Shown: positions 3,273 to 35,919 of the stretch, piece by piece
How the letters are laid out: each line of letters begins with the position of its first letter
How positions within the stretch are numbered: the stretch's first letter is position 1
Source of the DNA: an uncultured virus (IMG/VR IMGVR_UViG_3300045902_000304)
Taxonomy: Duplodnaviria; Heunggongvirae; Uroviricota; Caudoviricetes
DNA length: 64,000 nucleotides
Strand: one strand, 5' to 3'
IMG/VR virus record: IMGVR_UViG_3300045902_000304
The notes under the pieces: generated by a model
The model's database searches: none
What the model saw: the letters and a program-made list of their open reading frames with translations, nothing else
What the model was told of the DNA's origin: nothing
Translations under genes and position numbers: made by a program

Positions 3273-3854
3273 TTATTTTTTCCATTCTTTATAAGATTTT
3301 AACATTTCATATAAATATTCATGAAACTCTTCTTTAATGTAAAATTCTCTAAGACGCCATAAATCATATACAGAATTAAAATCTGGTTTTAAAGATTTAT
3401 AGTAATCAAACATTTTTTTTGTTTGGGCAAATTTGCAATCTTGAATAACAGAAGCAACATCATTATAATCTGGTTTTAAGGATATAAAAAAATCTAACAT
3501 TTCTTCAGTTTGAGCAATTTTACAACTTTTTAAAACCCAATAAAAATTGCTCCCATAAAATGGTTTTGATGCTTTATACAAATCAAGCATTTCTTGAGTT
3601 TGTGCAAATTCAAAAGCGACCATTAATTTCCCAATAAGTTCAAAGTTTTTTGGCTTTCGAGACATAAAGTAATCTAATATTTCTTTATTTCTTGCCTTTG
3701 GACAACGATGAATCAGGTATGCAACATCGTCAGCATAATTCCCTCTTTTTCTAATTTCCTCAATAGCATCAAATTCTTCTGGTAAATCATCAAAATACCA
3801 AGTATCCCCTAATAAATCAGTTTTTTTAATTATTAATTTAGGCACTTCCATCAT
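3273..3854 (-). CDS. 29-aa repeat family protein, paralog 2 (divergent)
   Basis: PKLIIKKTDLL...LPEEFDAIEEIRKRG N-terminus; CKFAQTKKMFDYYKSLKPD-type repeats. Confidence 0.85.
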   Translation of the reverse strand: MMEVPKLIIKKTDLLGDTWYFDDLPEEFDAIEEIRKRGNYADDVAYLIHRCPKARNKEILDYFMSRKPKNFELIGKLMVAFEFAQTQEMLDLYKASKPFYGSNFYWVLKSCKIAQTEEMLDFFISLKPDYNDVASVIQDCKFAQTKKMFDYYKSLKPDFNSVYDLWRLREFYIKEEFHEYLYEMLKSYKEWKK

Positions 3855-3926
3855 AGTTATCAATTTTATAATAAACTCTAAATTGCTCCCAAAGATAATC
3901 AAACCATCTTACTTTTGAAATAAGAA

Positions 3927-3962
3927 AGTCGGCAACGACCGCCAAGCCGCAAAGCGTTATGC
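3927..3962 (+). repeat. attC-like right half-site
   Basis: cgccaagccgcaaagcGTTATGC; the TAA stop of minus-strand gene 3957-4232 lies in the core. Confidence 0.6.
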
Positions 3963-4232
3963 GAAAGGAGGCTTAGGAAATTTATGCCAGTATTTAACAT
4001 CCAAATCATCACTTTCACATTCAGCAACTATTCGGCCATTTTCTTCATAAATCACTCCATTGCTTTCTGCCCAATGCCATCCGCAATCTTGCTCATAAGC
4101 TCTACACCCTATCGAAGTCCAGCCTTTCCCGTTGCTGATAAATACAGTTTCAAGTATATCGGGCAATTGAACATTTACGTCAATCCACCCCTCATGCGGG
4201 GTTTCTTGGTTTAATTTTGTTTTCGTTTCCAT
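3957..4232 (-). CDS. DUF551-like small phage protein
   Basis: WIDVNVQLP...VKYWHKFPKPP pattern. Confidence 0.65.
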   Translation of the reverse strand: METKTKLNQETPHEGWIDVNVQLPDILETVFISNGKGWTSIGCRAYEQDCGWHWAESNGVIYEENGRIVAECESDDLDVKYWHKFPKPPFA

Positions 4233-4273
4233 ATTAAAAATTGTTGTTAAGTTGATAAATTCGATTTAAAAAT

Positions 4274-4307
4274 CCAGCACGAACGCAAAGCTGCTGAAAC
4301 GTTGTAG
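4274..4307 (+). repeat. attC-like right half-site
   Basis: gcaaagctgctgaaacGTTGTAGgcagtgc. Confidence 0.5.
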
Positions 4308-4313
4308 GCAGTG

Positions 4314-4481
4314 CTACTTCCTTGCTTCGGATTTGACTTTAAGAAATTCATCGTAAGAAATCCTTTCCCATAAGTTTCTAAATCCTGTTTGCCATTTAAT
4401 AGCTTCATACTTTGCTTTCCCTTTTTTCCAAGGTCTTATGATTAATTCATAAGTAAATCCTTTGTATCTAAAATCTGCCAT
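4314..4481 (-). CDS. small hypothetical protein (55 aa)
   Basis: Manual translation MADFRYKGFTYELIIRPWKKGKAKYEAIKWQTGFRNLWERISYDEFLKVKSEARK*; below the ORF-track cutoff. Confidence 0.65.
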   Translation of the reverse strand: MADFRYKGFTYELIIRPWKKGKAKYEAIKWQTGFRNLWERISYDEFLKVKSEARK

Positions 4482-4522
4482 TTCGTTTTCAAATTAAATT
4501 TAGTGCTGATAAACCGCTCAGC

Positions 4523-4550
4523 ACATAACAGCGGTTTGGCAAAAGCCCGA
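4523..4550 (+). repeat. attC-like left half-site
   Basis: ACATAACagcggtttggcaaaagc; near-identical to the left arm at 11136. Confidence 0.6.
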
Positions 4551-5147
4551 TTATTGTACCTTCCCTTTCTCCACAAGCCATAGCCATTTCTCCCTGCCCT
4601 GATTGAATGTCTTGTCGCCTCTAACCACCTTAAAAGGAAACGCCTTGCCATTTTTCTTGCTAACAGGATACAAAATAAATACATCTAACTCACCAACACT
4701 CATATAGTGATATGCCTGCCTGTCGTAATCAAATGTATATACTGACTTTATAAACTGTTGTATGTCCGTCTTGTCAGTAGTCTTATAGTCTGCACCAAAT
4801 TTCCCGGTGTGAGTGTCATACTTGTCAAACAATGCCCGGCAAGCTATACCCTCCACTGTGTTGATTATTGCTACCTGATTGCTCCAGCCCTTAATAATGT
4901 CGTAAAAAGCATTATCCCTAACACCCCTCGCACATTTAACAGCATCCCCAAACCATTCCTCATTGATATACTTTGAAACATGCTCACTCTGGGTCAAAAT
5001 AGCATCCACACAAGAACCAAATGCAAAGGACTTTGTAGATGAACGTATGTAATCTCCTACAAGACCTTTCTTTATTTCAGTAAGCCCACTATTGCTTAAC
5101 TCTGGCCGACTGAAATATTCTTCCGGTGTAATTGGTAAAATTTGCAT
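4551..5147 (-). CDS. PD-(D/E)XK exonuclease (RecE/DUF3799-like)
   Basis: LSNSGL, FGSCVDAILT, CRALFDKY, ADYKTT, YDRQAYHY motifs; near SSB and RecT. Confidence 0.8.
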   Translation of the reverse strand: MQILPITPEEYFSRPELSNSGLTEIKKGLVGDYIRSSTKSFAFGSCVDAILTQSEHVSKYINEEWFGDAVKCARGVRDNAFYDIIKGWSNQVAIINTVEGIACRALFDKYDTHTGKFGADYKTTDKTDIQQFIKSVYTFDYDRQAYHYMSVGELDVFILYPVSKKNGKAFPFKVVRGDKTFNQGREKWLWLVEKGKVQ

Positions 5148-5174
5148 ATATTTGTCGTGTTAAATCTTATTGAC

Positions 5175-5414
5175 ATGTCTAAAATAGTAACTCTCCCAAA
5201 TGTAAAAAGAATTGGTGCGTCCATAAATAATCCGGCAGTCACCAAAAACTTTCTCGTGAACAACATTCTGCCCGATACAGTGGCAAATGTTTATGGTGAA
5301 GCTAACACTTCTCGGTTCAGTCTGCAAACCGGGAAAGGCTACCCTGAAAAGGTCAAGGTAGGCCTACCCGCTTCTACTGTGAATGCCTATATATTGGCAG
5401 CCGCTAACAGCTAA
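5175..5414 (+). CDS. hypothetical protein, inverted within recombination module
   Basis: 79 aa, preceded by TATATTTG at 5147-5154. Confidence 0.6.
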   Translation: MSKIVTLPNVKRIGASINNPAVTKNFLVNNILPDTVANVYGEANTSRFSLQTGKGYPEKVKVGLPASTVNAYILAAANS

Positions 5415-5773
5415 AAAGGCAAATCATCTGATTCGCTTGAACTGCCAGCACTCAATGGGTGTTGGCTTTCTGTGTTTGTACTTGGCTCTGCCTTACCAGA
5501 AAAGTCTATATTCAAAACCGTGACCTTAGTGTAATACTTGTCATCTTTCTTGTCAATAGAAACAACGCCTTGCACTGTTACCCTTGTGCCTTTGCTAACA
5601 TATTGCTCAATCACATCTGCAAGTTTTTCCCACGCCGAACAATTGAAATAGGACACCTTTTCTTTGTTGTGGTTGTGTGCCACTGAAAACTCGACAACTT
5701 TTTTGCCGTTCACATTTTTTGATACCGGATTTGCGGTCACATTGCCGCTAACTACTAACTGATTTATACTCAT
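5411..5773 (-). CDS. ssb: single-stranded DNA-binding protein
   Basis: NQLVVSGNVTANP OB-fold start, KGTRVTVQG, acidic tail DDLPF. Confidence 0.92.
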   Translation of the reverse strand: MSINQLVVSGNVTANPVSKNVNGKKVVEFSVAHNHNKEKVSYFNCSAWEKLADVIEQYVSKGTRVTVQGVVSIDKKDDKYYTKVTVLNIDFSGKAEPSTNTESQHPLSAGSSSESDDLPF

Positions 5774-5784
5774 TTTTTTACTGT

Positions 5785-6804
5785 TTACGCTTTTACCACT
5801 TCTACCATTCGTACACCATTAATGACGGTTTCGTTTTTCTTATACTCCGAATTTGCGAAGTTAAGCATTACCCCTAAATTCTTTGCACACCACTCAGGAG
5901 TAAGTTTCCCTTTTTGATGATAAAAAGCAATTATAGCCAACCACTCAGCAGCCGTTTCGGGGCTATACTTCTTCTCTACCTTTATCTTCAAAGCTCCGCT
6001 TGGGCTAATCTCAGGAATGGTGTCAATAGCTGCCATTGTTGTAGCCATCGCAATTTCTGCCTCCATATTGCGCTCTGCAACCTCAATAGCCTGCTCAGCT
6101 TCCTCTCTTGCTACTTCAAGAGAGGGCTGTAACTCAAAGTCTGCCATATCCCTTGCGTATGCCGGCACTAATTCATTCTTGCACTCAACAAATACATTGT
6201 GCACAAGTTTCTTAGCCTCTGCCTCTGTGTGATGCTTATATCCTACACTTGCCATTGCTTGGGCGCAAAGCCTCTTGTACTCTACATCTGATAGGTACTT
6301 GACGAATGGCTTCCCATCTACACAAAGTTGCTTTTGCTCTAACGTGAACTTGCTTATTTCGGACAACAAGTTAGCCTTAAATGCGCTTACTATTGTTGTT
6401 GCCTCTTTGGTCTTTTCGGCTTTTAATAACGCTTCCTGCTCTGCTTTACGCCTTTGCTCAAGCTCTATCTCTGCTTTCTTATTGAGTAGCGCTTGCATCT
6501 GTGCCAATATTTGCTCTATCTCGTTCTCCTTAGCGGTAAACATTTTTATCACCTCATTGAATGGTCGGGACTTTTCTTTCCTAAGCTCTGACCCTTTTTT
6601 AAGACTTGCAGCTATCTTGCTCTTTACATCCTTCAATGCCTCATGGTCTAACTCCATGATAGGCATTTGTGCGAATCTTTGATACTGGGCCTTTGCAGAT
6701 TGGCTTAACTGTTCAAAGCCATTGTACAGCGATTGAAACTCGCTATTAGAATGGGCTAATGAACTCAATACTGCTTGAACTGGTGCTAATTCTTTGTTCT
6801 CCAT
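5785..6804 (-). CDS. coiled-coil protein of recombination module
   Basis: 339 aa, helical and charged, between RecT-like gene and ssb. Confidence 0.7.
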   Translation of the reverse strand: MENKELAPVQAVLSSLAHSNSEFQSLYNGFEQLSQSAKAQYQRFAQMPIMELDHEALKDVKSKIAASLKKGSELRKEKSRPFNEVIKMFTAKENEIEQILAQMQALLNKKAEIELEQRRKAEQEALLKAEKTKEATTIVSAFKANLLSEISKFTLEQKQLCVDGKPFVKYLSDVEYKRLCAQAMASVGYKHHTEAEAKKLVHNVFVECKNELVPAYARDMADFELQPSLEVAREEAEQAIEVAERNMEAEIAMATTMAAIDTIPEISPSGALKIKVEKKYSPETAAEWLAIIAFYHQKGKLTPEWCAKNLGVMLNFANSEYKKNETVINGVRMVEVVKA

Positions 6805-7579
6805 TGTCTCTATTTATTTTATTTATTTGATTGTACTCTTCTCTGTTTGCTGCTTGCTCTAAATATTCCTCTTCATAGTCCGGTGCCTCTGCAATAGCTC
6901 TTGCTATTTCTGAGTGCTCAGGAGTAATAATGTTTATGAACAACTCATTACACAGCATTTTTACCGCTGTCTTACCATACATTTCTATATCCCACTCCTT
7001 CCAAACATAATCAGTCTTTGCCTTGCTTTTGCGCTTATCAAGCCTGTATAGCTCTACAAAAAGGTCTATCTGAACTCCGTTTTTCTTAACAGCGCTTGCA
7101 ACTACTCCATATATCCCTCTACTTTTTTGATGTGCTTCACTTTGTATAGGTATGTAGGTGTGCTTAATAACCCGTCTGTTTATAGGGTCATAAACAAATC
7201 CATTGCCTCCATCTGCTGCGGCCTCGTCTTTATACACAACCGTGTATCTAATATCTTCTGCTGCGCCTGATAGCCTCGCCAGCTTAGCGTAAGCCCTCCA
7301 TTGAAAGCCCAATGTACAAACGCCGTTCCTAACCTCGAAAAAAAGCTCTTTGGCAAATGATTGGTCAAGACTAAATATTACCAAATTAACGGCTTTCTTA
7401 ACCGCCGACTTAATGCTTTCGTAGTTGGTGCAAGCCCTAAGTGCATCGCCTTGCTTGCCAGGTGCATCAAATATAGACTTGGCTATATTTATCTCTGAGT
7501 ATATGCGTGATTCAGGCACGCTTTTTTCTTCAAGCAGCTCTTTTTGGGCTGCTTCAATGGCTTCGTGTATTGTTTTCAT
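6746..7579 (-). CDS. RecT-like single-strand annealing recombinase
   Basis: LGFQWRAYAKLARLSG, VVYKDE, VWKEWDIEMYGKTAVK match the RecT pattern. Confidence 0.75.
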   Translation of the reverse strand: MKTIHEAIEAAQKELLEEKSVPESRIYSEINIAKSIFDAPGKQGDALRACTNYESIKSAVKKAVNLVIFSLDQSFAKELFFEVRNGVCTLGFQWRAYAKLARLSGAAEDIRYTVVYKDEAAADGGNGFVYDPINRRVIKHTYIPIQSEAHQKSRGIYGVVASAVKKNGVQIDLFVELYRLDKRKSKAKTDYVWKEWDIEMYGKTAVKMLCNELFINIITPEHSEIARAIAEAPDYEEEYLEQAANREEYNQINKINRDNGEQRISTSSSSIEFISPF

Positions 7580-7622
7580 GCTTATATTTTAATTAGTGCT
7601 GCAATAGTACGGCGGCAAAATG

Positions 7623-7934
7623 TCATTGATTGGCACTTTTCGACAAGTTGCCACAATTGCTCGACAAATAGTCTAATAATTTAGACAGATTTTTATCATC
7701 GTCCGGCACAAGAAATATGATATATTCAGTCCGTCTGCTTAATATGTATTTGGATAGTCCATTATTGATAGCTCTGTTTGCATGGTGCATATATGAGGTG
7801 CCTTCAACACACAGCCTCCAGCATTTAACGCCAATGACTGCATGGTAATAGTCTTTGTTTAGCCATGCTTTTGACTTATCCGGCCATTGCTTGTGCAGCC
7901 TTTCAATAAGGTCTTTAGGTGTTTCTTTTGGCAT
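7623..7934 (-). CDS. hypothetical protein
   Basis: Start moved to MPKETPK to avoid overlap with 8005-8232. Confidence 0.55.
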   Translation of the reverse strand: MPKETPKDLIERLHKQWPDKSKAWLNKDYYHAVIGVKCWRLCVEGTSYMHHANRAINNGLSKYILSRRTEYIIFLVPDDDKNLSKLLDYLSSNCGNLSKSANQ

Positions 7935-8004
7935 GTTAATGATAGTTAGGCCGTATGGGGTAGGTGGTAGCAGATGTTGCGCAAATGAATGAGTTAGTGC
8001 CATT

Positions 8005-8232
8005 TTAAGAACACATCCTATCTCCGGTATCACCGTTACCAATGTTACCACGTAACACAACAACACTACCTCGTTTTTTACACCAAGCATAATCCATAGT
8101 AATCCACCACCTACCATTATTGTTAGTTGTGCTACTGTTCTTTCTAAACTTGATATAAAAACGGCACATAACATCGGCTATATTCAATGCCGATATTTGT
8201 GATGCGTTTAAATTTTGTTCTTCGTTTGTCAT
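8005..8232 (-). CDS. hypothetical protein whose start lies within an attC-like loop
   Basis: MTNEEQNLNASQISALNIADVMCR; ALNIADVM is the antisense read-through of the hairpin left arm. Confidence 0.65.
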   Translation of the reverse strand: MTNEEQNLNASQISALNIADVMCRFYIKFRKNSSTTNNNGRWWITMDYAWCKKRGSVVVLRGNIGNGDTGDRMCS

Positions 8233-8297
8233 TTTATATGTTTATTAAAATTTTGCTTTTCAAAGTCGCCACTAAATATAGCCGATAACCGTTAGAC
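8166..8297 (+). repeat. complete attC-like site (132 bp)
   Basis: ACATAACatcggctatattcaatgccga ... tcgccactaaatatagccgataaccGTTAGAC; arms are complementary. Confidence 0.8.
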
Positions 8298-8342
8298 GAA
8301 AGCACTACCAGACTGCTAATCCGATAGTGCATCGCATCTTAA

Positions 8343-8981
8343 TTACTTCTTGTCATAGTATTTAAAAACTGCATCAAGTTGTTTTGGGTCTTTCAGAATG
8401 TAGTAATAACATTCATCAAAATTACTTTCAATATAATGCAAATTTCTAATTTCAGCTTCCTCTTTTGTAATTGGCACACGAACTACATCAATGTAAAATG
8501 TTTTCGGTTTGAAAGGAAATTTAACAAATTGTCTGCTACTGATTAACTCAAAATTCCTATCATCATAATAAACGTGTCCAGTAAATGTTTCCCAATCTTC
8601 GACACCTTTCCAAACAATAGCATACAAATAATAAGCCCTTGAAACATCTCCACTTATAAAGTGCGTTGTTTCTAAAAATAATGCGGAACACCTTTTGTTT
8701 TGTCTAAAAGTAATGTCTTTTGATATATCACTTTCCAAAGGTTCACTCCATTCGTTTTCGTGTCCTGTAACATCGCAAATAGGTTCTTGCAACATTAGTT
8801 TTTTTACTGCTTGTGAAATAGCATAAGCGGTGTAAGGTGCTGAACCACCACTTTGTCCTGATTTGCCAAATGCTTCACACAATGCAAGTATTTCTTTTGC
8901 AAATGGTGTAATAATAGCATCAGGTGTTGTTGCTGCAAGAATATCCAACTCTTGCTTTGCAAATTTTTGTGTATTTGTCAT
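8343..8981 (-). CDS. conserved-looking hypothetical phage protein (cassette-borne)
   Basis: 212 aa, FGKSGQSGGSAPY and QNKRCSALF motifs; lies between two attC-like sites. Confidence 0.8.
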   Translation of the reverse strand: MTNTQKFAKQELDILAATTPDAIITPFAKEILALCEAFGKSGQSGGSAPYTAYAISQAVKKLMLQEPICDVTGHENEWSEPLESDISKDITFRQNKRCSALFLETTHFISGDVSRAYYLYAIVWKGVEDWETFTGHVYYDDRNFELISSRQFVKFPFKPKTFYIDVVRVPITKEEAEIRNLHYIESNFDECYYYILKDPKQLDAVFKYYDKK

Positions 8982-9046
8982 TTTATGTATGTGGTTCACC
9001 TTTACACCACAAGGTTTTAAGTTTCAGTTTAATAAATCGTGCCATC

Positions 9047-9178
9047 GCATAACACACGCTTGATAAAAGTGGCGGGGCAGTACTCCGCTTGACATTTAGT
9101 GATACATTCAACATTTGTTCTCCACACCAACATTTGTGGTTAAATTCCCCGCCTTCGCCAAGTCCGAACCAGTTAGTC
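9047..9178 (+). repeat. complete attC-like site (132 bp)
   Basis: GCATAACacacgcttgataaaagtggcgggg ... ccccgccttcgccaagtccgaaccaGTTAGTC. Confidence 0.8.
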
Positions 9179-9236
9179 TAAAATACACTAAACTAATATT
9201 CATCCAAAAGCATATCAAGTTTTTGAGATAAAAAAT

Positions 9237-9638
9237 TTAAGAATTGGCCGCTGTTGCGCAAATGAACGATTTATGCCTCATGCTCAAATAGCGACAAGAC
9301 ACCTTTGTTAAGTTTTCGATTTTTTTTCCTATAAGCAACATCATTTTTTTTGAAACTCTTTCAAAATAGTTAAACATTTGCGGGGTGTGTGAAGCCTCGC
9401 ATTTGAGTAACACGTTTACCGTGTTATCATAGTCTGGTTCCAAGGACAAATAATACGCAAACACTTCGGGTGTTTGTGCCTTTGTGCAGTTCCTGAGAAG
9501 CCAGCTTACATCATCAACCACATAATTTTGCCGCTCAATTTCTTTAATTGCGTCAAAACGCTGTCCTTCCAGATAGTCATACCTGCCGCAGGGGCGTTCT
9601 GCGAGGTCGGCGAAGGTGATAATTAATTGAGGTTTCAT
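9237..9638 (-). CDS. 29-aa repeat family protein, paralog 3 (chimeric C-terminus)
   Basis: PQLIITFADLAERPCGRYDYL; two repeats; tail copied from the HNH gene end. Confidence 0.8.
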   Translation of the reverse strand: MKPQLIITFADLAERPCGRYDYLEGQRFDAIKEIERQNYVVDDVSWLLRNCTKAQTPEVFAYYLSLEPDYDNTVNVLLKCEASHTPQMFNYFERVSKKMMLLIGKKIENLTKVSCRYLSMRHKSFICATAANS

Positions 9639-10132
9639 TTTTCTATTTTTTTAATGTAATTAATTACCTTATCGTTCTTTGCGGCGACTGGGCATTCATT
9701 TATCAAACGTATTACGTCTTTGTAATACGGTTTTTTTTCTAAATAATACGCAAACATTTCGCGGGTTTGGGCTTTTTTACAGTTGATTATTAACGAGCGT
9801 ATGTTTCGGTAATCCGGATTTTTCGACACATAATACCCAAACATTTCTGGCGTCTGGGCTGCTGGGCAGTTGATTATTAACCAGCTTACGGTACGGTAAT
9901 CTGGGTTTATAGAGATATAATATTGAAAAATTTCGCGGGTTTGCGCCTTGGGGCAGTTGATGAGGAGCCAGTCCATATCCATAAATATCATTTCATTTTT
10001 TTCAATTTCTTTAATTGCGTCAAAACGCTGCCCTTCCAGATAGTCATACCTGCGGCAGGGGCGTTCTGCAAGGTCGGCGAATGTGATAATTAATTGGGGT
10101 TTTTCAATCCGGTTGTTTTCTGTTGTTTCCAT
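9635..10132 (-). CDS. 29-aa repeat family protein, paralog 4
   Basis: PQLIITFADLAERPCRRYDYL; three repeats plus cap. Confidence 0.85.
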   Translation of the reverse strand: METTENNRIEKPQLIITFADLAERPCRRYDYLEGQRFDAIKEIEKNEMIFMDMDWLLINCPKAQTREIFQYYISINPDYRTVSWLIINCPAAQTPEMFGYYVSKNPDYRNIRSLIINCKKAQTREMFAYYLEKKPYYKDVIRLINECPVAAKNDKVINYIKKIEK

Positions 10133-10554
10133 ATTTTTTTTGTGTGATTAAAAAAGCGACAAGACACCTTTGTTAAGTTTTCGATTTTTTTCCTATAAGC
10201 AACATCATAACGGTTATGACAACGCTGACAAAGTGCTTTAAGGTTTGAGAAATCATTGTTTTTGACATCGTGGTCTAAGTGTGCAATAGTTAGAACAATG
10301 ACAATCAATTTATCATCACAACACTCGTTACAATGCTTGACAAGCTCACGAGCTTCTTTATATGAAAGCTCACCATTACCAGCAGAATCATGTGTAATGT
10401 TTCCTCCAGTTGGAATAAATTTTTCACCATTCCAATTACCAACTGAATAATTTTTGACACCGCAAAACTCACAACAATTTTTAGCACGTTCCATTATTGC
10501 AGGGCGTATTTCGGTTTTCCAGTTTGACGGATATTTTTTGTAATCTATTGGCAT
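10090..10554 (-). CDS. HNH endonuclease-like protein
   Basis: CEFCG, VLTIAHLDHD, NLKALCQRCHNRYD. Confidence 0.85.
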   Translation of the reverse strand: MPIDYKKYPSNWKTEIRPAIMERAKNCCEFCGVKNYSVGNWNGEKFIPTGGNITHDSAGNGELSYKEARELVKHCNECCDDKLIVIVLTIAHLDHDVKNNDFSNLKALCQRCHNRYDVAYRKKIENLTKVSCRFFNHTKKIWKQQKTTGLKNPN

Positions 10555-10581
10555 AATATTGAGTTTTAAACAAGCTCGAAG

Positions 10582-10713
10582 GCAGAACAGCAACTACACA
10601 AAATTGGCAGTTTAGTACTAAAATGAACTGTATTGCTTCGGTTTAACATTTGTGTTTATATTAAGTTTTGTGCTTTGTAATAGCCGCTTTCGCCAAGCCC
10701 GAAAACGTTACCT
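10582..10713 (+). repeat. attC-like site (132 bp, hybrid arms)
   Basis: GCAGAACagc ... ttcgccaagcccgaaaacGTTACCT; arms only partly complementary. Confidence 0.65.
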
Positions 10714-10719
10714 GCAAGG

Positions 10720-11094
10720 CTACGACACTGCATATAACGACATTACAATAATAACAATAGCGTGTAATAATTGGTCAAAACCAAAAACAATCCAATGCCA
10801 TTTATTAGCAGGTGATTGTAGTGCAGGAAACCACCCATTCATTCTGCCTTTCCAAACATCAATTAAAAAATGTGTATTCAATTGAAATGCTGATAAATTC
10901 AATACTAATTCTAAATTATTAGTAAAAAACACTAAAAATAAAAACATTAGTATTGTGTGGATTCCAGCGTGTGCAAATATTGGGAATAATGGTTTACCTA
11001 ATCGCTTTGCATTAAGCATCCAAGCAGTTGATAAATGTGTGTAATCTGCTAAAAAATGGCAGATAAATAATCCGATTAAAATTGTTGTTTGCAT
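10720..11094 (-). CDS. DUF3307-like membrane protein (cassette-borne)
   Basis: HFLADY, THFLID, GFDQLLH motifs. Confidence 0.8.
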   Translation of the reverse strand: MQTTILIGLFICHFLADYTHLSTAWMLNAKRLGKPLFPIFAHAGIHTILMFLFLVFFTNNLELVLNLSAFQLNTHFLIDVWKGRMNGWFPALQSPANKWHWIVFGFDQLLHAIVIIVMSLYAVS

Positions 11095-11135
11095 TTATTT
11101 TTCAAATTAAATTTCCTACTGATAATCCGACCAGC

Positions 11136-11227
11136 AGGCAACAGCGATTTGGCAAAAGCTACCAGAAACATTGTGCGAACTTTTAATATCAGTTAGTCCG
11201 CCTTCGCCAAGCTGCAAAACGTTATGC
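11136..11227 (+). repeat. complete attC-like site (92 bp)
   Basis: AGGCAACagcgatttggcaaaag ... ccttcgccaagctgcaaaacGTTATGC. Confidence 0.8.
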
Positions 11228-11228
11228 G

Positions 11229-11432
11229 CTATGCTGTGATAAACGCCAACAACTCAAACCGTTTTATTAGTTCCGACAATATCATATCTGTATCATCTAT
11301 TCTTGGAGGCACTGTCATTGTGAAACTTCTACCACCAGTTGAGCATAATTTACTAAGTGCTGATTTTGCCATTTCTGCAAGTTGTTGGTCAGGAATAGCT
11401 GCTAATTTTGCTTTAAATTCTTCGTTTGTCAT
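11229..11432 (-). CDS. small hypothetical protein
   Basis: 67 aa; same leader and MTNEE start as 8005-8232. Confidence 0.7.
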   Translation of the reverse strand: MTNEEFKAKLAAIPDQQLAEMAKSALSKLCSTGGRSFTMTVPPRIDDTDMILSELIKRFELLAFITA

Positions 11433-11568
11433 TTTATATGTTTATTAAAATTTTGCTTTTCAAAGTCGGCACTAAATATAGCCTATAACCGTTATTGCCA
11501 AAAGCGGGGGCTGACTTTCCACTAATAGGCAATTCCACTACATTCGCCAAGCCCGAAAAACGTTAGCT
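11419..11568 (+). repeat. tandem attC-like remnants (copy of 8219-8294 right arm, then truncated site ending GTTAGCT)
   Basis: GTT cores at 11491 and 11562; ttcgccaagcccgaaaaacgttag arm. Confidence 0.7.
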
Positions 11569-11622
11569 GCAAGCGTAGGACACTGCTCCGAATGAACAGC
11601 ATCCTACACAAGCCGAAAAAGG

Positions 11623-11925
11623 CTAAACTATTTTTCTCAAGTGCCTTAAATTCCCTTCTGCCTTTTCATTAAGTTCATTTAATCTGTCAAGCAAAAGATT
11701 GATTTCTTCCGTTATACTTTCGGGCTGCTTATCTTTTACAGATTCTTTTAACGTTGAAGGTTTATCATAACTTTTAATCGCTTGCAGTTTTTCTTTTGTT
11801 TCGCATACAATACTATCATAGCGATTCACTGCACTTTCTAACTTCCCGATAATTAAGCTAAATTCAGGTTGATGAATTGTAGTAGGCTCATCGTAGCCTG
11901 TTACTTGGATTTTTTCTCCGTACAT
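11623..11925 (-). CDS. hypothetical protein
   Basis: 100 aa, between attC-like sites. Confidence 0.7.
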   Translation of the reverse strand: MYGEKIQVTGYDEPTTIHQPEFSLIIGKLESAVNRYDSIVCETKEKLQAIKSYDKPSTLKESVKDKQPESITEEINLLLDRLNELNEKAEGNLRHLRKIV

Positions 11926-11951
11926 AATTTTTGTTGTTTAAAAACGCCAGC

Positions 11952-12037
11952 CTCAAACAAATTATTGCCAAAAGTGGGGGCTGACTTTCCACTAATAGGC
12001 AATTGCAATACTTTCGGCAAGCTCTAACCAATTACCT
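11952..12037 (+). repeat. degenerate attC-like site
   Basis: attgccaaaagt ... actttcggcaag stem; ~43 bp shared with 11492-11534; radical SAM stop falls in the degenerate core. Confidence 0.55.
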
Positions 12038-12937
12038 GCAACCTTTACCATTCTGCTCCGTTGCACAGCCCCTGCTGCTGAAATATTCCAATAAGGTACA
12101 ATCGGCAAATGATTTTCTAATAGCACTTCTGCTTGTTGGTGCATATTCCTGTTTGACAGCATCAATATACATAGTGAAGCAAAAATCATCGCCCATGTAA
12201 AATCTTTCCCACCCTTCTTCCGTAAATAACCGTTTGACATTAAGCTGCTCTATCGCAAGATTATCAAAGGATAGTGTGCATTTGCCTATTAATTTGGGCA
12301 ACTGTTTATACCATTGCTTTAACTCAGTATCAACTTTCTTGCTATGGTAATTAACGCCAAATCCAAAGTATTTATAGCCCAATACAAGCACTTTGCAATT
12401 GCCTAACTTAATCAATTTATCAATCACTTCAACTTTATTTACCCCCGCAATTAGATGATAAACAATATTGTTAGTAATTAGCAAAAGCGGCTTGATGTAT
12501 TTGAAATTATTGCTTGTAATGGAAATCCCAACACCCCTAACAAGTTCATCTTTTATCAAGTATGTAAGTAGGTCTTGATAGGCTTTTAAATGGCCTTGAT
12601 TAACTGTAATATTTGCAATAATTCCCCGTGCTTTCAATACCTGTAAAAAATCTACAAGTTTTGGATGCGATAATGGATTCCCTCCGCCAATAGCAAGCTC
12701 AACCCCGGCAGGCAATTCTGAAATAACATCAAGCAGTTTATCCAAGTCTGCGTGAATACCTTTTGTAGTTGAACTTTCGTGGCAATAAGCACAACCCATA
12801 TCACAGTAGTCTGTAATTTTTACATCAATGCTTTCAGGGTGCGTAATTTCAGGGTCATTTTCATACTCCCTAATTTTAGTACCATCATGCAATATTGTAA
12901 CGGTTGTGTTCCCGTTAGTATACTTCGCTATTACCAT
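12032..12937 (-). CDS. radical SAM protein
   Basis: CDMGCAYCHE (CxxxCxxC) and AIGGGNP. Confidence 0.9.
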   Translation of the reverse strand: MVIAKYTNGNTTVTILHDGTKIREYENDPEITHPESIDVKITDYCDMGCAYCHESSTTKGIHADLDKLLDVISELPAGVELAIGGGNPLSHPKLVDFLQVLKARGIIANITVNQGHLKAYQDLLTYLIKDELVRGVGISITSNNFKYIKPLLLITNNIVYHLIAGVNKVEVIDKLIKLGNCKVLVLGYKYFGFGVNYHSKKVDTELKQWYKQLPKLIGKCTLSFDNLAIEQLNVKRLFTEEGWERFYMGDDFCFTMYIDAVKQEYAPTSRSAIRKSFADCTLLEYFSSRGCATEQNGKGCR

Positions 12938-13467
12938 TAGTTCCCTTTCAAATATTTGTCGTGAGGATAAGAAACTTTTATTTTAAGTTTTTCAATACTT
13001 TCATCATCTTCATCATTGCCGGTGATGACAAAGCTTAGCGGCGAAAATAAGTATCTCATTAGCTTTTCGGGGTCTTTGCAAATTGCATCTAAAAATGGTT
13101 TCATTTCATCGGCATGGTCAACATAGCCACCATTTACACGTTCTGTATATGTAACTACTTTGCCATCTGATTCAGTATATCTGTGAACCTCGTAAATTGG
13201 TTTTTCGGCTGTAACTTTAATCCCTTTCTGGTTCAAAATAGAAATGATTTTATTGACATCTTTTTGTCGGTTGGTGTCAATAAGCCCGGTATAAATGTAG
13301 CTTGCCTTTTGCTCTGTTGAACGCAAGGTATTATGCTGCCACGCAAATTCCCCAAATTTAAAATGAAGGGATTGTGGAATTATTAAATCTGCATCTTTAG
13401 CTATGCAAATACTGTGAGTGCTTGAACTGTTTGTTTCAAACACGCCTTGTCTGATTTGTTTTTTCAT
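12937..13467 (-). CDS. hypothetical phage protein with GVFETNSSSTH motif
   Basis: MKKQIRQGVFETNSSSTHS; stop overlaps the radical SAM start. Confidence 0.8.
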   Translation of the reverse strand: MKKQIRQGVFETNSSSTHSICIAKDADLIIPQSLHFKFGEFAWQHNTLRSTEQKASYIYTGLIDTNRQKDVNKIISILNQKGIKVTAEKPIYEVHRYTESDGKVVTYTERVNGGYVDHADEMKPFLDAICKDPEKLMRYLFSPLSFVITGNDEDDESIEKLKIKVSYPHDKYLKGN

Positions 13468-13471
13468 AATG

Positions 13472-13807
13472 CTAATTATTAACAAAATCTATCAGCGCTG
13501 CCTCCTGAAATGCTTGATAGTTCCTATAACCCTCTACTTTTTCTAAACCCAACCCAGCCAACTGTATAACCCGTATATCGGCCAATGGGTGCATTGCTCT
13601 CAACATATCTTTTGCAACATGGCAATTGTCTGTATCAAGCAGGATAAACTTATGCTCAGGATGCAGCTCCCTAATATCTTTGTACTTTCGGCTTATAGCC
13701 AAGTGAACATCTAAGCTCTCTTTCAACCTGCACAAAATCTCTATATCCCCAAATTTGCCTGTTAAAATAGCTACCTTACCAGTGCCTATGAACTCATACC
13801 CTTGCAT
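13472..13807 (-). CDS. hypothetical protein
   Basis: 111-aa ORF in operon orientation. Confidence 0.65.
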   Translation of the reverse strand: MQGYEFIGTGKVAILTGKFGDIEILCRLKESLDVHLAISRKYKDIRELHPEHKFILLDTDNCHVAKDMLRAMHPLADIRVIQLAGLGLEKVEGYRNYQAFQEAALIDFVNN

Positions 13808-14631: not shown

Positions 14632-14725
14632 GATGCAAAAATGTTTAATATTCAATTATCTGTATGCAAATTTAGACTAATGCGCTTAATATGTCGGTGA
14701 AACAATTAAATCAGCCTACAAAAAG

Positions 14726-14754
14726 AAAAAGCCTGCACAACGTACAAGCTTTTT
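14726..14754. terminator. putative intrinsic terminator
   Basis: aaaaagcctgcac-aac-gtacaagcttttt imperfect stem with A/T tracts, downstream of RHH gene. Confidence 0.5.
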
Positions 14755-14784
14755 ACCTTTTCACACCTTAACACTTAAACAAAA

Positions 14785-14928
14785 CTACTGTCTATCTGCC
14801 CAATGCTCAATAATTGCGGCAAGTAGGGCATTAATACTTATGCCTCTTTTTGCTGCTCTCTCTTGCAGCTTCTTAATCCGGCCTATCCCCTTAATATACA
14901 CCTTAAAAGGACTCTTTTGATTATCCAT
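14785..14928 (-). CDS. ribbon-helix-helix (Arc-like) DNA-binding protein
   Basis: Manual translation MDNQKSPFKVYIKGIGRIKKLQERAAKRGISINALLAAIIEHWADRQ*. Confidence 0.6.
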   Translation of the reverse strand: MDNQKSPFKVYIKGIGRIKKLQERAAKRGISINALLAAIIEHWADRQ

Positions 14929-14961
14929 TCTGTTCTTGGTTTATACTGACTTCTCCCACCG

Positions 14962-16125
14962 CTAAAGCGTGTGGGGTTCTTGATTCAACGAAAACCGCCT
15001 ATCAACGATGACAGGACTTACATTTTCTCCAACAAGTATAGAGGCGAAGCCCTCACCCCTGTTTTTTATATTGATGGCTGCATTGCCATCCCGATTATGT
15101 TTTGTTCTGCATACCGAACAAGTCCATTCACGAACACTTAAATCCATATCATCATTGACATTACCACAAACATTACAAATTTTGCTGGTATTTCTCGGAC
15201 TGACTTCAATATATTGTCTGCCATACCACTGGGACTTATACCGAAGCATATTTTTAAACATCCCCCATCCAGCATCGTTTATGCTTTTTGCAAGTTTGTG
15301 GTTTTTTACCATTCCTCTTATGTTCAGATTCTCCAAACTTACAGATTGGTTCTCTCGTATAAGTTTTGTGGAGAGTTTATGCAGAAAATCTTTACGCTGT
15401 TCACTTACTTTTTTATGTGCTTTGGCTAATTGTTTAACTGCTTTCTTACGATTGTTGCTTCCTTTCTTTTTACGGCTAACAACTCTTTGCAGTTGCTTTA
15501 ATTTTTTCTCTGTCTTGCGAAGATATTTCGGTGCATCAAAATATTCTCCATCACTTGTTACTAAAAAATTTGTTAATCCTAAATCAATGCCGATTTTATT
15601 TTTACTTTCTGCAAGTGGTTGTTTGCTAACATTTCCTGTTATACTGACATACCATCCGTCTGCCTCTTTGATAATAGTTGCAGTTTTTATGGTCATATTC
15701 TCATTGTATCGGTCTTTGAAAAATCTAACTTTGCCGATTTTAGGAAAGGAGAAACGAAGTGTATTAGGATGGAGTTTAACACCTTGCTTAAAAGTGAACG
15801 ATTTATATTTGTTTTTCTTTGCCCATTTCGGGTATTTTGCTCTGTGCTTAAAAAAGTTATCATACGACCTTTCAAGACGGTCTAAAACATTTTGCAGAAC
15901 TTGGCTGTGTGGAGCATTAAGCCATTCAGATTCTTTTTTTGCTTCGGTTAATTGCTTCATCAATTCATTCTTGCTAATTCCTTTTTGTCGTTTGCGGTAT
16001 GTATCTTTTTTTATGTCCATTCCCATATTGTACAGAAAACGACAAGTACCAAGCCATTGCTCAAATAACCTTGCTTGCTCTTTGTTTGGTTTGAGTTTGT
16101 ATTTATATGTTATATTTGTTAGCAT
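14962..16125 (-). CDS. tnpB: RNA-guided endonuclease TnpB
   Basis: GIDLGL, LENLNI, CNVC/CSVC zinc finger, RDGNAAINI; RuvC D-E-D intact. Confidence 0.95.
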   Translation of the reverse strand: MLTNITYKYKLKPNKEQARLFEQWLGTCRFLYNMGMDIKKDTYRKRQKGISKNELMKQLTEAKKESEWLNAPHSQVLQNVLDRLERSYDNFFKHRAKYPKWAKKNKYKSFTFKQGVKLHPNTLRFSFPKIGKVRFFKDRYNENMTIKTATIIKEADGWYVSITGNVSKQPLAESKNKIGIDLGLTNFLVTSDGEYFDAPKYLRKTEKKLKQLQRVVSRKKKGSNNRKKAVKQLAKAHKKVSEQRKDFLHKLSTKLIRENQSVSLENLNIRGMVKNHKLAKSINDAGWGMFKNMLRYKSQWYGRQYIEVSPRNTSKICNVCGNVNDDMDLSVREWTCSVCRTKHNRDGNAAINIKNRGEGFASILVGENVSPVIVDRRFSLNQEPHTL

Positions 16126-16165
16126 ATATTTATGCCACAAATATACTACTTATTATGATATGTTG

Positions 16166-16173
16166 TATATTTG
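16166..16173 (+). promoter_or_regulatory. Bacteroidota-type -7 promoter box for tnpA
   Basis: TATATTTG (TAnnTTTG); a mirror box on the minus strand near 16138-16145 would serve tnpB. Confidence 0.6.
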
Positions 16174-16188
16174 CAAAAAAATATTTTT

Positions 16189-16584
16189 ATGGACAGATGG
16201 AAACAGAGCAATACCTGTGTGTTTAATACTTCCTATCATTTTATATGGTGTCCTAAATATCGCAGAAAAGTCCTTGTTGGGAAAATTGAAAAGCGGTGCA
16301 AAGAACTTATTAAACACAAAGCCAAAGAACTTAATATTGAGATTGGCAAAATGGAAATTATGCCAGACCATGTTCATTTATTTATTAAAGCAAGACCTGT
16401 TCATAGCCCACAATATTTGGTTTCTCAATTTAAAGGTTTTACTTCTCACGAACTACGAAAAGAATTTCCTGAACTTAAAAGAAAATTGCCTACACTCTGG
16501 ACAAGAAGTTATTATGTTGAAACTATCGGACATATATCAGAAGAAACTATAAAAAAATATATTGAAGAACAAAAAAATAAATAG
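16189..16584 (+). CDS. tnpA: IS200-type Y1 transposase
   Basis: YHFIWCPKYRRK, PDHVHLF (HUH), LWTRSYY, KYIEEQ. Confidence 0.95.
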   Translation: MDRWKQSNTCVFNTSYHFIWCPKYRRKVLVGKIEKRCKELIKHKAKELNIEIGKMEIMPDHVHLFIKARPVHSPQYLVSQFKGFTSHELRKEFPELKRKLPTLWTRSYYVETIGHISEETIKKYIEEQKNK

Positions 16585-16796
16585 GCGCAATTCATCCCAC
16601 TCATAAATGAGGTGGGCTTTCTTGTGTCTCTTTCGTAGTAGCCCAAATGATAGCTTCCTCTGTCAAAATTGACTACATCCGGCAATCCATACATGACTGC
16701 ATAATTTTTAGCCTGTGCTTTCGTTAGCTTACGCAAAACAAATTTGCACTTTGAAATCTGCATTTCAAAAAGATATTCATTAACTGGTAGTATCAT
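16512..16796 (-). CDS. hypothetical protein with C-terminus replaced by IS left end
   Basis: Tail ERDTRKPTSF... is translated IS end; same string appears in ORF 35754-35939. Confidence 0.55.
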   Translation of the reverse strand: MILPVNEYLFEMQISKCKFVLRKLTKAQAKNYAVMYGLPDVVNFDRGSYHLGYYERDTRKPTSFMSGMNCAYLFFCSSIYFFIVSSDICPIVST

Positions 16797-25219: not shown

Positions 25220-25504
25220 CTAACCCCACCGCTCGACAAATACCGAAGGGTTCCATTTCAGTTGTATTGCCCCTACTTTTTTAAGTTTTTCAAAAGTATC
25301 TTTTCGGATAGTTTCAATATTTCCACCTTCTTCAACAAGTGTGTACTCGGTGCGCCCTTTATCAAAATTAATGTCAACCTGTATCTCAGCACCATAATTT
25401 TTGCAAAGCCCGTAGATAATAAGTTGATGACGAGAAAGCCCAGCCGGCAACAAGCGATTAGCTTCATTGCCTTTTTCTTGGTTTGTTGAAATTTTGTTTT
25501 CCAT
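25220..25504 (-). CDS. hypothetical protein in attC-like cassette
   Basis: MENKISTNQEKGNEANRLLPAG reads through hairpin left arm at 25445-25471. Confidence 0.65.
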   Translation of the reverse strand: MENKISTNQEKGNEANRLLPAGLSRHQLIIYGLCKNYGAEIQVDINFDKGRTEYTLVEEGGNIETIRKDTFEKLKKVGAIQLKWNPSVFVERWG

Positions 25505-25694
25505 ATTAAATTTATTTTTAAAGTTAAAAGTTCGTTTTGCAAAGTCAGCTACAAACGCCAACCTCTTGACATGCAAAGTATTGTTTCACTTTTATTCTGA
25601 GCTTCTTTAGAGCTATTTGCCCGCAAGACATCCCATCAAATAACGATAATACATTCAGTGCCATATTTGTATATTCGCTTAGGCGGTTATGCGA

Positions 25695-34512: not shown

Positions 34513-34567
34513 ATTTTTAATTGATTTAATTGTTTACTACGCATATTTTACCTTTTAAGTGCGACGT

Positions 34568-35867: not shown

Positions 35868-35919
35868 GTAAGCTACCAAACCCATCGGCTCTGCCGTGAG
35901 TGGGTGGTTCACCCAATAA

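What the first reader, a model, noticed from the sequence alone, without database searches (positions are those of the whole stretch)
3927..12037. Integron-like attC cassette array in a phage early region, with no integrase in view
Seen: at least ten related hairpin elements separate single small genes. Complete ones are 8166-8297, 9047-9178, 10582-10713 (each 132 bp) and 11136-11227 (92 bp). Half or degenerate ones lie at 3927, 4274, 4523, 11491, 11562 and 11952. They run ..(T/C/G)AAC-arm...arm-GTT.., and several share ttcgccaagc..aaaacgtt. No tyrosine recombinase ORF is present in the window. Established: this is the R''...R' architecture of integron attC sites, and clusters without intI are called CALINs. 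Inference: the phage gains and shuffles accessory genes as cassettes, perhaps using a host integron integrase in trans.
Basis: partly seen in the sequence, partly recalled or inferred. Interest (0 to 1): 0.88.

Follow-up and report, generated by a model that had tools for sequence, protein, structure and literature searches.

The report
Integron-like gene cassettes in a phage
A large phage of Bacteroidota carries a row of small genes, including one resembling a known anti-defence gene, separated by folding DNA sites that behave like integron recombination sites but belong to a little-described system with a simpler recombinase and a reversed layout.

Summary
A covariance model built from 32 related sites in viral contigs and 2 window copies finds 7 sites in the window, all on the gene-sense (minus) strand. 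Six lie inside the finding. Three or four more are half-sites.

The family is widespread. It occurs in at least 125 viral contigs, at least 126 Bacteroidota genome contigs and 57 of 121 Flavobacteriaceae genomes searched. Its fold is supported by covariation.

The sites behave as cassette boundaries. In ten cultured Flavobacterium phages every switch of gene order lies inside 5'-TAACG-3' at the 5' end of a site. The site always stays with the gene downstream. In the window, one cassette (site C plus a DUF3307 gene) is shared core-to-core with an unrelated viral contig.

In bacterial chromosomes the same sites follow genes in the classical integron orientation. There they lie next to a Xer-like tyrosine recombinase that lacks most of the IntI-specific insertion. 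In phages the layout is reversed.

The window holds no such recombinase, and several of its sites are decayed. Partial precedents are Qi et al. 2023 (attC clusters without an integrase, called CALINs, in phages) and Ross et al. 2019 (rAID-1 clusters).

The parts
11947..12041 (-). Site A. Degenerate site whose core reads TAAT (12034-12031). Its TAA is the stop codon of the radical-SAM gene 12032-12937.
   Evidence: R1 22.5 bits, E 5e-4. The arm pair GCTTGCCGAA/TTTTGGCAA carries a compensatory G>C / C>G change relative to the family.
11623..11925 (-). 100-aa gene of unknown function, downstream of site A.
   Evidence: ORF list. No PHROG or Pfam match.
11478..11572 (-). Site B, core TAAC 11565-11562. 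Its 3' end runs straight into a second core (B').
   Evidence: R1 30.9 bits, E 1.7e-6. Sequence.
11433..11494 (-). Half-site B'. It holds a core (TAAC 11494-11491), the 5' arm and the loop of an F-type site, and lacks a 3' arm. The ATG of the next gene (11432) follows the loop sequence.
   Evidence: The 77-nt repeat 11418-11494 is 97% identical to 8218-8294.
11229..11432 (-). 67-aa gene that shares its first codons (MTNEE) and its leader with gene 8005-8232.
11131..11231 (-). Site C, core TAAC 11224-11221. It is the best-folding window copy.
   Evidence: R1 64.1 bits (this copy was in the model's alignment). The MFE structure pairs the two arms. It is 84% identical over 128 nt to a 642-kb uncultured phage record.
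10720..11094 (-). DUF3307 membrane protein, the cargo of cassette C.
   Evidence: Pfam PF11750, 52 bits. phrog_2470. Window 10702-11224 matches viral contig L053 at 81.9% over 530 nt, core to core, with unrelated flanks.
10587..10717 (-). Site D, core TAAC 10710-10707. Its 3' arm is degenerate.
   Evidence: R1 61.2 bits, with 9 unpaired pairs in the inner stem.
9237..10554 (-). Three genes after site D: an HNH endonuclease (10090-10554) and two paralogous repeat proteins (9635-10132 and 9237-9638).
   Evidence: phrog_1571, E 4e-21. 87-nt tandem repeats and a 101-nt repeat at 95% identity.
9042..9182 (-). Site E, core TAAC 9175-9172, of the 125-nt class.
   Evidence: R1 79.4 bits (this copy was in the model's alignment). 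It is 74-84% identical to about 30 sites in the fetched loci, many of them in bacterial-genome contigs.
8343..8981 (-). Gene resembling Tad3 (a type I Thoeris inhibitor), the cargo of cassette E.
   Evidence: Pfam PF25185, 59 bits against a cut-off of 27, E 4.8e-16.
8161..8301 (-). Site F, core TAAC 8294-8291. Its arm sequences differ from the family consensus but still pair. The ATG of gene 8005-8232 lies in its loop.
   Evidence: R1 63.4 bits with only 1 unpaired pair. Inverted repeat 8173-8193 / 8266-8286.
4482..4546 (-). 3' half-site (arm 4523-4546) plus a leader hairpin, directly after the stop of the exonuclease gene. The 5' half is missing.
   Evidence: The 68-nt repeat 4479-4546 is 82% identical to 11092-11159. 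A 55-nt stretch is 96% identical to a 635-kb uncultured phage record. Not significant with R1.
4274..4297 (-). Degenerate 5' half-site, core CAAC 4294-4291.
   Evidence: Sequence. Not significant with R1.
3927..3960 (-). 5' half-site. The core TAAC is at 3959-3956, and its TAA is the stop codon of gene 3957-4232.
   Evidence: A member of repeat family D2, 63% identical to the reference copy. R1 10.5 bits, E 2.1.
25440..25575 (-). Isolated degenerate site outside the finding, between a 357-aa gene and a 118-aa ORF.
   Evidence: R1 36.5 bits, E 3.6e-8.

Best explanation
The region is a partly decayed array of folded single-strand recombination sites. They belong to a Bacteroidota-wide, integron-like cassette system.

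Fold of a site. On the gene-sense strand the consensus site folds as follows:
- a terminal TAAC/GTTA helix;
- a 5-by-1 nt internal loop;
- a 4-bp covarying helix;
- a conserved C.A mismatch;
- a helix of about 15 bp with two conserved G.T wobbles;
- a variable loop. Whole sites measure 77-128 nt.

The mobile unit. It is the site body plus the gene or genes downstream, up to the TAA of the next core. Strand exchange happens inside 5'-TAACG-3'. On the other strand this is the G|TT point of integron sites.

Likely enzyme (inferred). It is a Xer-like tyrosine recombinase that lies beside arrays of the same sites in Bacteroidota chromosomes and in a few phages. This window has none, so any shuffling would need a host or co-infecting source.

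Cargo. In the window it includes a Tad3-like gene and a DUF3307 membrane protein. In related phages it is mostly DNA methyltransferases.

Shown here: the fold, the strand bias, the core-restricted junctions and the physical linkage to the recombinase.

Inferred: the identity of the enzyme, the single-stranded substrate, circular intermediates, and present-day activity in this phage.
For: 1. Structure. On 34 diverse sites, 94.9% of pair cells are standard pairs, against 36-51% when the partner columns are slid. Eight of 23 pairs change on both sides. Site F keeps the fold with different arm sequences.

2. Strand. Folded as DNA, the gene-sense strand is more stable in 33 of 34 sites (mean -17.4 against -14.4 kcal/mol; shuffles -10.5).

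3. Junctions. Ten Flavobacterium phages hold 119 sites, all on the gene strand.
- 8 of 22 upstream-flank types are joined to more than one site body.
- 6 of 28 bodies are joined to more than one upstream flank.
- 0 of 28 bodies are joined to more than one downstream sequence.
- Every listed switch lies at TAACG(T).
- The 506-bp indel between mumin6-1 and mumin6-3 is bounded by the 7-nt TAACGTT of two consecutive cores.

4. The window itself. Cassette C (10702-11224) is shared with viral contig L053 at 81.9% over 530 nt. It runs core to core, and the flanks are unrelated.

5. Orientation. In viral contigs, genes lie on the site's model strand in 72 cases and on the opposite strand in 2 (13 mixed, 43 with too little flank). 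In bacterial contigs the counts are 64 opposite and 2 same (21 mixed, 2 with too little flank). A purely transcript-level element should keep one orientation relative to genes.

6. Recombinase.
- Locus L153 reads recombinase, SSB, a 445-aa gene, then 7 sites with HEPN, GNAT and glycosyltransferase genes.
- Homologues lie near sites in 7 further bacterial loci and 2 viral contigs.
- Of 121 Flavobacteriaceae genomes, 51 have both sites and recombinase, 6 have sites only, 39 have the recombinase only and 25 have neither. The odds ratio is 5.4 and p is 3.5e-4, not corrected for phylogeny.
- In 16 of the 51, a listed site lies within 17 kb of the recombinase gene (my reading of the tables).

7. Precedent. 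One site of Polaribacter phage P12002L recombined with attI1 under IntI1, bottom strand only (Qi et al. 2023, PMC9892861, section 3.4).
Against: - No recombinase was found in the 64-kb window, and the rest of the genome is not held.
- Window copies fold no better than shuffles. Three or four are half-sites, so the array may be a fossil.
- No excision circle or recombination assay exists for this family.
- The P12002L sites score only about 19 bits with R1, so that experiment may not transfer.
- The exact 5' arm was required by the search pattern. Its invariance in alignment A1 is therefore partly by construction.
- Not all switches are core-exact. One element was replaced between TAACG and the 3' GTTA with both flanks kept, and one switch lies about 12 nt inside a site.
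- The joints seen in metagenome contigs are at low depth with short sides. Two of them lie in 3' arms or loops rather than at cores.
- Array L190 has 13 sites, but its genome gave no high-scoring recombinase.
- The co-occurrence statistic ignores relatedness and genome completeness.
Confidence: 0.7

Rival explanations
1. The hairpins act mainly in the phage mRNA, as processing sites, stabilisers or translation-start platforms between early genes. Cassette-like mosaicism would then be a by-product of conserved intergenic sequence.
For: - All phage sites lie on the transcribed sense strand.
- Two conserved G.U pairs favour that strand.
- In many sites the ATG of the next gene sits in the loop and the 3' arm is coding. 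This holds for the methyltransferase genes and for site F.
- Upstream stop codons fall at fixed places. The TAA of TAAC serves as the stop in 28 cases, and a stop lies at -13 in 21.
Against: - In bacterial chromosomes the same sites lie on the opposite strand to the genes: 64 opposite against 2 same. The conserved fold is therefore not tied to the transcript.
- Junctions restricted to 5-6 nt are not explained by an RNA role.
- Physical linkage to a tyrosine recombinase is not explained either.
- No Rfam family matches.
- A dual role remains possible and is not excluded.
Confidence: 0.15
2. No dedicated enzyme is involved. The conserved intergenic sequences act as short homology patches for general or phage (RecT-type) recombination or for template switching. 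This would resemble the promoter-stem-loop cassettes described for T4-type phages (recalled, not read here).
For: - The window encodes RecT, SSB and an exonuclease inside the array.
- Some breakpoints lie in arms or loops rather than at the core.
- Repeats between sites within the window are 66-77 nt long and 89-97% identical.
- Most phages with arrays have no recombinase of their own. The complete lillamy9-1 genome has none annotated.
Against: In the ten-phage comparison, switches occur at TAACG even where the adjoining arms are dissimilar. The shared identity is then only 5-7 nt. Homology-driven exchange should spread over the longer conserved arms and across both ends of the site. Yet 0 of 28 bodies change their downstream partner.
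Confidence: 0.1
3. The elements are miniature transposable elements (MITE or palindrome-associated type) moved by the IS200/IS605 Y1 transposase present in the window.
For: - The window has two IS200/IS605 copies. One carries TnpA (PF01797), and both carry TnpB.
- Y1 transposases act on single-strand hairpins next to a short cleavage word (established knowledge, recalled).
Against: - The IS end hairpins share no sequence with the sites.
- The sites never move alone: 0 of 28 bodies have more than one downstream partner.
- No TnpA is annotated in lillamy9-1, which has 13 sites.
- No target duplication or empty-site pair was seen.
Confidence: 0.03

Closest known systems
Integrons: attC sites, IntI, and attC clusters lacking an integrase (CALINs), including CALINs reported in phages (Qi et al. 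2023, PMC9892861; abstract, sections 2.1 and 3.4 and supplement read)
   Same: - Imperfect inverted repeats with AAC/GTT cores, paired arms and a variable central part. Site length is 77-128 nt.
- One strand folds better than the other.
- Crossover is confined to the core.
- Sites form same-polarity arrays between single genes.
- Cargo includes DNA methyltransferases, as in Polaribacter phage P12002L.
- This window has no integrase.
   Different: - The associated recombinase lacks most of the IntI-specific insertion and is below the curated IntI cut-off.
- The consensus stem has no bulged bases. The spacer is 5 by 1 nt.
- In phages the site lies upstream of its gene on the sense strand.
- Qi et al. 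list 17 CALINs in 10,705 phage genomes and no Flavobacterium phage. Here single phages hold 10-14 sites.
- IntegronFinder 2.0 reports only one complete integron in Bacteroidetes (PMC9024848, passage read).
rAID-1 clusters of Bacteroidales (Ross et al. 2019, bioRxiv 10.1101/471110; passages read)
   Same: [quoted passage not shown] This matches L153 and the Flavobacterium lutivivi array.
   Different: - rAID-1 was described in gut Bacteroidales, with immunity genes as cargo.
- In the passages read there was no mention of phages, a folded-site model, a crossover point or a reversed layout.
- Homology between the rAID-1 recombinase or its repeats and those found here was not tested.
Xer-dependent resistance-gene modules (pdif modules) of Acinetobacter plasmids (PMC7399989; only the start of the abstract was seen, in the listing)
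   Same: Single-gene modules are bounded by sites for a Xer-type tyrosine recombinase supplied by the host.
   Different: To my recollection those sites are duplex dif-like sites, not folded hairpins. They are not arranged in same-polarity arrays in phage early operons.
Promoter-stem-loop 'mobile regulatory cassettes' of T4-type phages
   Same: Conserved intergenic stem-loops flank small accessory early genes and coincide with mosaic boundaries.
   Different: Those are thought to work through homology and carry promoters. Here the junctions are confined to a 5-6 nt core, and the sites are shared with recombinase-linked chromosomal arrays.

Membership tests
Integron attC site | Inverse core sites ending in AAC and beginning with GTT that pair with each other | tested here: met
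   A-U, A-U and C-G pairs in 34, 34 and 33 of 34 sites. The preceding T-A pair is standard in 30 of 34. Pairing further out is only 40-80%.
Integron attC site | Second pair of imperfect inverted repeats (L boxes) and a variable central part | tested here: met
   A 19-pair inner helix is 94.6% paired, and 8 of its pairs change on both sides. Whole-site lengths fall into classes of 77, 86-90, 118-120 and 124-128 nt.
Integron attC site | Extrahelical bases in the stem of the recombining strand | tested here: not met
   The consensus helix has no bulge. It has only a C.A mismatch and a 5-by-1 internal loop. Individual sites were not inspected for bulges.
Integron attC site | One (bottom) strand folds better and carries the crossover 5'-AA|C | tested here: met
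   The model strand is more stable in 33 of 34 sites. Switches are confined to TAACG at its 5' end. The exact phosphodiester bond cannot be resolved.
Integron attC site | Detection by the published attC covariance model (IntegronFinder or HattCI) | not testable with these tools
   That model is not available here. Rfam gives no match.
Integron (complete) | IntI integrase with the IntI-specific insertion in the catalytic domain | tested here: not met
   TIGR02249 scores 133-209 bits against a cut-off of 265 for 6 array-linked recombinases. Against Vibrio IntI4 (2a3v) the alignment breaks, with 35 residues facing 77.
Integron (complete) | attI site and Pc promoter next to a divergent intI | not tested
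   In L153 and G003 the recombinase is co-directional with the cassettes. No attI was sought.
CALIN (cluster of attC sites lacking an integrase) | Two or more sites close together with no integrase nearby | tested here: met
   Six model-supported sites lie within 3.9 kb (8161-12041), and no tyrosine recombinase is in the window. This holds only if the sites are accepted as attC-type.
rAID-1-like recombinase-associated array | 5' XerD-like recombinase followed by co-directional genes with repeated intergenic elements | tested here: met
   Met for bacterial loci L153 and G003. Not met for the window, which has no recombinase. Homology to the B. fragilis recombinase was not tested.

The most novel reading that the evidence does not exclude
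Bacteroidota hosts and their virulent phages share one folded-DNA cassette exchange system run by a Xer-like recombinase. Phages use it in reverse layout. Each site then mobilises a gene and also supplies its translation start, and sometimes its first codons. The phage early operon becomes a swappable counter-defence store holding methyltransferases, Tad3-like inhibitors and similar genes. This store would mirror the defence and immunity arrays of the host chromosomes.
Probability: 0.45. Interest if true: 0.85.

Novelty: new variant of a known kind. Interest (0 to 1): 0.72.

Why it matters
If the reading holds, integron-style gene capture is not confined to IntI integrons of Proteobacteria.

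- A simpler Xer-like version would be common in Bacteroidota. Sites were found in 57 of 121 Flavobacteriaceae genomes searched and the recombinase in 90 of 121.
- The same system would reach into virulent phages, where it would explain how early-operon anti-defence genes are swapped one at a time.
- The sites would give a sequence handle for finding new anti-defence genes, as cargo between sites.
- They would provide a tractable model, because the cultured Flavobacterium phages differ by single cassettes.
- They would offer a possible route of gene flow between phage and host arrays.
- Standard integron finders appear to miss most of it.

Tried and rejected
- Rfam. The whole window at gathering thresholds gave 0 hits. 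Region 3500-12500 at E<=10 gave only chance-level hits elsewhere. There are no tRNA or tmRNA genes.
- Single-sequence folding of window copies did not separate them from shuffles.
- IS200/IS605 ends do not resemble the sites.
- I looked by eye for sigma-54-like or Bacteroidota promoter motifs in the arms. Spacing was inconsistent, so I dropped this.
- Relatives of the window's own phage. Nineteen loci fetched with the radical-SAM protein share only a two-gene module, with one R1 hit in 342 kb. RecT gave no relative in the viral contigs. Megablast against 50,697 phage records found only a 55-nt site fragment. No whole genome is held for the window.
- Polaribacter phage P12002L gave only three R1 hits of about 19 bits.
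- No RNA holder is listed among the sequencing runs.
- In runs X2, X4 and X6 some bins have no cover. I draw nothing from that.
- The high-depth joint 10727>11107 has sides of 22-26 letters and probably comes from other organisms' sites.
- Searches of this scan's earlier findings by place and by sequence returned nothing.
- Structure prediction, complex prediction and the large protein searches were not used.

Full report
WHAT IS THERE

The window is part of a large phage. It holds a terminase, portal, GroEL, helicase-primase, RecT, SSB and an exonuclease, and a 3254-aa ORF. Between 3273 and 14655 almost all genes lie on the minus strand.

Read on that strand, the intergenic stretches share a motif. 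In the consensus site it starts with (n)TAAC GTTTT CGGG CTTGGCGAAG and ends with TTTTGCCAAA CCCG T GTTA.

I searched viral contigs for the exact 5' word. The full elements there run 77 to 128 nt.

I aligned 32 diverse elements with two window copies (A1) and wrote down the obvious fold. Of all pair cells, 94.9% are standard pairs, against 36-51% when the partner columns are slid by 1-3. Eight of 23 pairs change on both sides. Two G.U pairs and one C.A mismatch are invariant. The 5' arm was fixed by the search pattern, so its invariance is partly by construction.

SITES IN THE WINDOW

A covariance model of this alignment (R1) finds seven sites in the window with filters off, all on the minus strand:
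- 9042-9182 (79.4 bits)
- 11131-11231 (64.1 bits)
- 8161-8301 (63.4 bits)
- 10587-10717 (61.2 bits)
- 25440-25575 (36.5 bits)
- 11478-11572 (30.9 bits)
- 11947-12041 (22.5 bits)

The copies at 9042-9182 and 11131-11231 were in the model's alignment and match it by construction.

Site 8161-8301 has quite different arm sequences that still pair, which is strong covariation.

Most window copies are weak hairpins. Nothing in Rfam matches.

DO THE SITES BOUND CASSETTES?

A distant search of phage records hit 46 Flavobacterium phage records.

The complete 38-kb genome of phage lillamy9-1 has 13 R1 sites. All lie on the gene strand, between 2247 and 8963, among the small genes of the leftward early gene cluster. 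No integrase is annotated.

Ten such phages hold 119 sites, all on the gene strand.

Phages mumin6-1 and mumin6-3 differ by 506 bp. The difference is one site body plus one gene. The junction lies inside the 7-nt TAACGTT shared by two consecutive cores, although the adjoining arms differ.

I classified the flank before each core, the site body, and the sequence after each site:
- 8 of 22 upstream types are joined to more than one body.
- 6 of 28 bodies are joined to more than one upstream type.
- 0 of 28 bodies are joined to more than one downstream sequence.

In the junction table every switch is exactly at TAACG(T).

The exceptions are these:
- One site was replaced between TAACG and its 3' GTTA, with both flanks kept.
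- One switch lies about 12 nt inside a site.
- One body differs only in its spacer.

In the IMG/VR loci, alignments that share the downstream side start 1-3 nt before AAC in 40 of 68 cases. Twelve alignments share the upstream side. Ten of them end between +1 and +22, and two end at -60.

THE WINDOW ITSELF

No close relative of this phage was found. One cassette is nevertheless shared with an unrelated viral contig. Window 10702-11224 matches L053 at 81.9% over 530 nt. The match runs from the TAAC of site C (11224) to just past the TAAC of site D (10710-10707). The flanks are unrelated on both sides. The cargo is a DUF3307 membrane protein.

The next cassette carries a gene matching the Pfam family of the Thoeris inhibitor Tad3, at 59 bits against a cut-off of 27.

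Contigs from public runs give weak hints that the region varies in nature:
- 10598>11969 skips three cassettes (depth 3, side 30). Both ends lie in site 3' arms.
- 4300>9172 has one end at the core of site E (depth 2, side 30).
- 4545>9120 has depth 2.6 and side 24.

BACTERIA

R1 gives 199 hits in 75 of these loci. Some loci hold arrays, for example 13 sites in 20 kb in L190 and 7 sites in L153.

In bacteria the genes lie on the strand opposite to the model: 64 opposite, 2 same, 21 mixed and 2 with too little flank. In viral contigs the counts are 72 same, 2 opposite, 13 mixed and 43 with too little flank.

So in bacteria a gene is followed by its site, with the crossover core at the far end. 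This is the classical integron arrangement, and the model strand corresponds to the integron bottom strand. That strand folds better as DNA in 33 of 34 sites. In phages the layout is reversed.

This dichotomy argues against a purely RNA-level role.

THE RECOMBINASE

In L153 the array is preceded, in the same direction, by three genes:
- a 558-aa tyrosine recombinase. It matches PF00589 and PF13495. It scores 211 bits on NF040815 (cut-off 220) and 209 bits on TIGR02249, the integron-integrase model (cut-off 265).
- an SSB.
- a 445-aa gene.

Its best solved relative is Vibrio IntI4. The alignment breaks where IntI has its specific insertion, with 35 residues facing 77.

Homologues lie near sites in seven more bacterial loci and in two viral contigs. 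One of the viral contigs is a complete 62.9-kb genome.

In a sample of 121 Flavobacteriaceae genomes:
- 57 have R1 sites.
- 90 have this recombinase type.
- 51 have both, 6 sites only, 39 the recombinase only and 25 neither.
- The odds ratio is 5.4 and p is 3.5e-4, uncorrected for phylogeny.

In 16 of the 51 genomes with both, a listed site lies within 17 kb of the recombinase gene. This count is my own reading of the two tables.

In Flavobacterium lutivivi the recombinase sits about 5.7 kb upstream of the L156 array and points the same way. L190's genome gave no high-scoring copy.

LITERATURE

- Qi et al. 2023 (PMC9892861; abstract, sections 2.1 and 3.4 and supplement read) report 17 CALINs in 10,705 phage genomes. 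One is in Polaribacter phage P12002L, with methyltransferase cargo. One of its sites recombined with attI1 under IntI1, bottom strand only. No Flavobacterium phage is listed.
- IntegronFinder 2.0 (PMC9024848, passage read) reports a single complete integron in Bacteroidetes.
- Ross et al. 2019 (bioRxiv 10.1101/471110, passages read) describe rAID-1 clusters. These have a 5' XerD-like recombinase and co-directional arrays with integron-like intergenic repeats.
- Searches for Flavobacterium-phage intergenic stem-loops, for integron-like hairpin cassettes in phages, and for Xer-like cassette systems in Bacteroidetes found nothing closer.
- Earlier notes of this scan describe the same family in other genomes. 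They are not independent evidence.

VERDICT

The array works like an integron cassette array and fits the CALIN description. It belongs, however, to a Xer-type, bulge-free system that is reversed in phages and is only partly described in print.

In this window the array is partly decayed and has no recombinase in view.

Noticed in passing
window 14700-16620 and 34540-35870: There are two IS200/IS605 copies in a phage genome. One has TnpB (14962-16140, minus strand) and a divergent TnpA (16189-16584, PF01797). The other has TnpB only (34618-35790, minus strand). Their end hairpins are nearly identical to each other.
   Followed up: partly
window 9237-10208: Two adjacent paralogous genes (9237-9638 and 9635-10132) are built from 87-nt (29-aa) tandem repeats. 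There is also a 101-nt repeat at 95% identity and a 58-nt repeat at 98-100% identity at 9286-9344 and 10151-10208. This looks like a recent local duplication next to the HNH gene.
   Followed up: no
window 8343-8981 (minus strand): A cassette gene matches Pfam Tad3, a type I Thoeris inhibitor (59 bits, cut-off 27). It is a candidate anti-defence gene in a phage of Bacteroidota.
   Followed up: partly
window 12032-13485 (minus strand): A radical-SAM gene plus a phrog_28997 gene form a two-gene module. It recurs at 57-80% protein identity in 19 otherwise unrelated viral contigs, some 345-435 kb long. The module seems mobile on its own, without R1 sites.
   Followed up: partly
loci L017, L018, L019, L026, L029, L072 (viral contigs): In many 119-nt sites the ATG of a DNA methyltransferase gene lies in the loop, and the 3' arm is read as its first codons. 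Different methyltransferase families read that arm in different frames (FCQTRV against FAKPVL).
   Followed up: partly
site loops, e.g. window 9060-9140 and 10600-10680; L115, L020: Long loops contain 2-4 tandem copies of a motif of about 16 nt (roughly nCACnAAAnGTTnAAT). Its role is unknown. It might be a protein-binding repeat.
   Followed up: no
window 20908-22425 and 37253-37897: The phage encodes a GroEL and has a weak GroES-like match. A 3254-aa ORF lies at 41724-51488. Both are consistent with a very large phage genome.
   Followed up: no
L153:8091-9886: An SSB gene and a 445-aa coiled-coil-like gene sit between the array recombinase and the first site. An SSB beside a system that needs folded single strands may be functional.
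   Followed up: no
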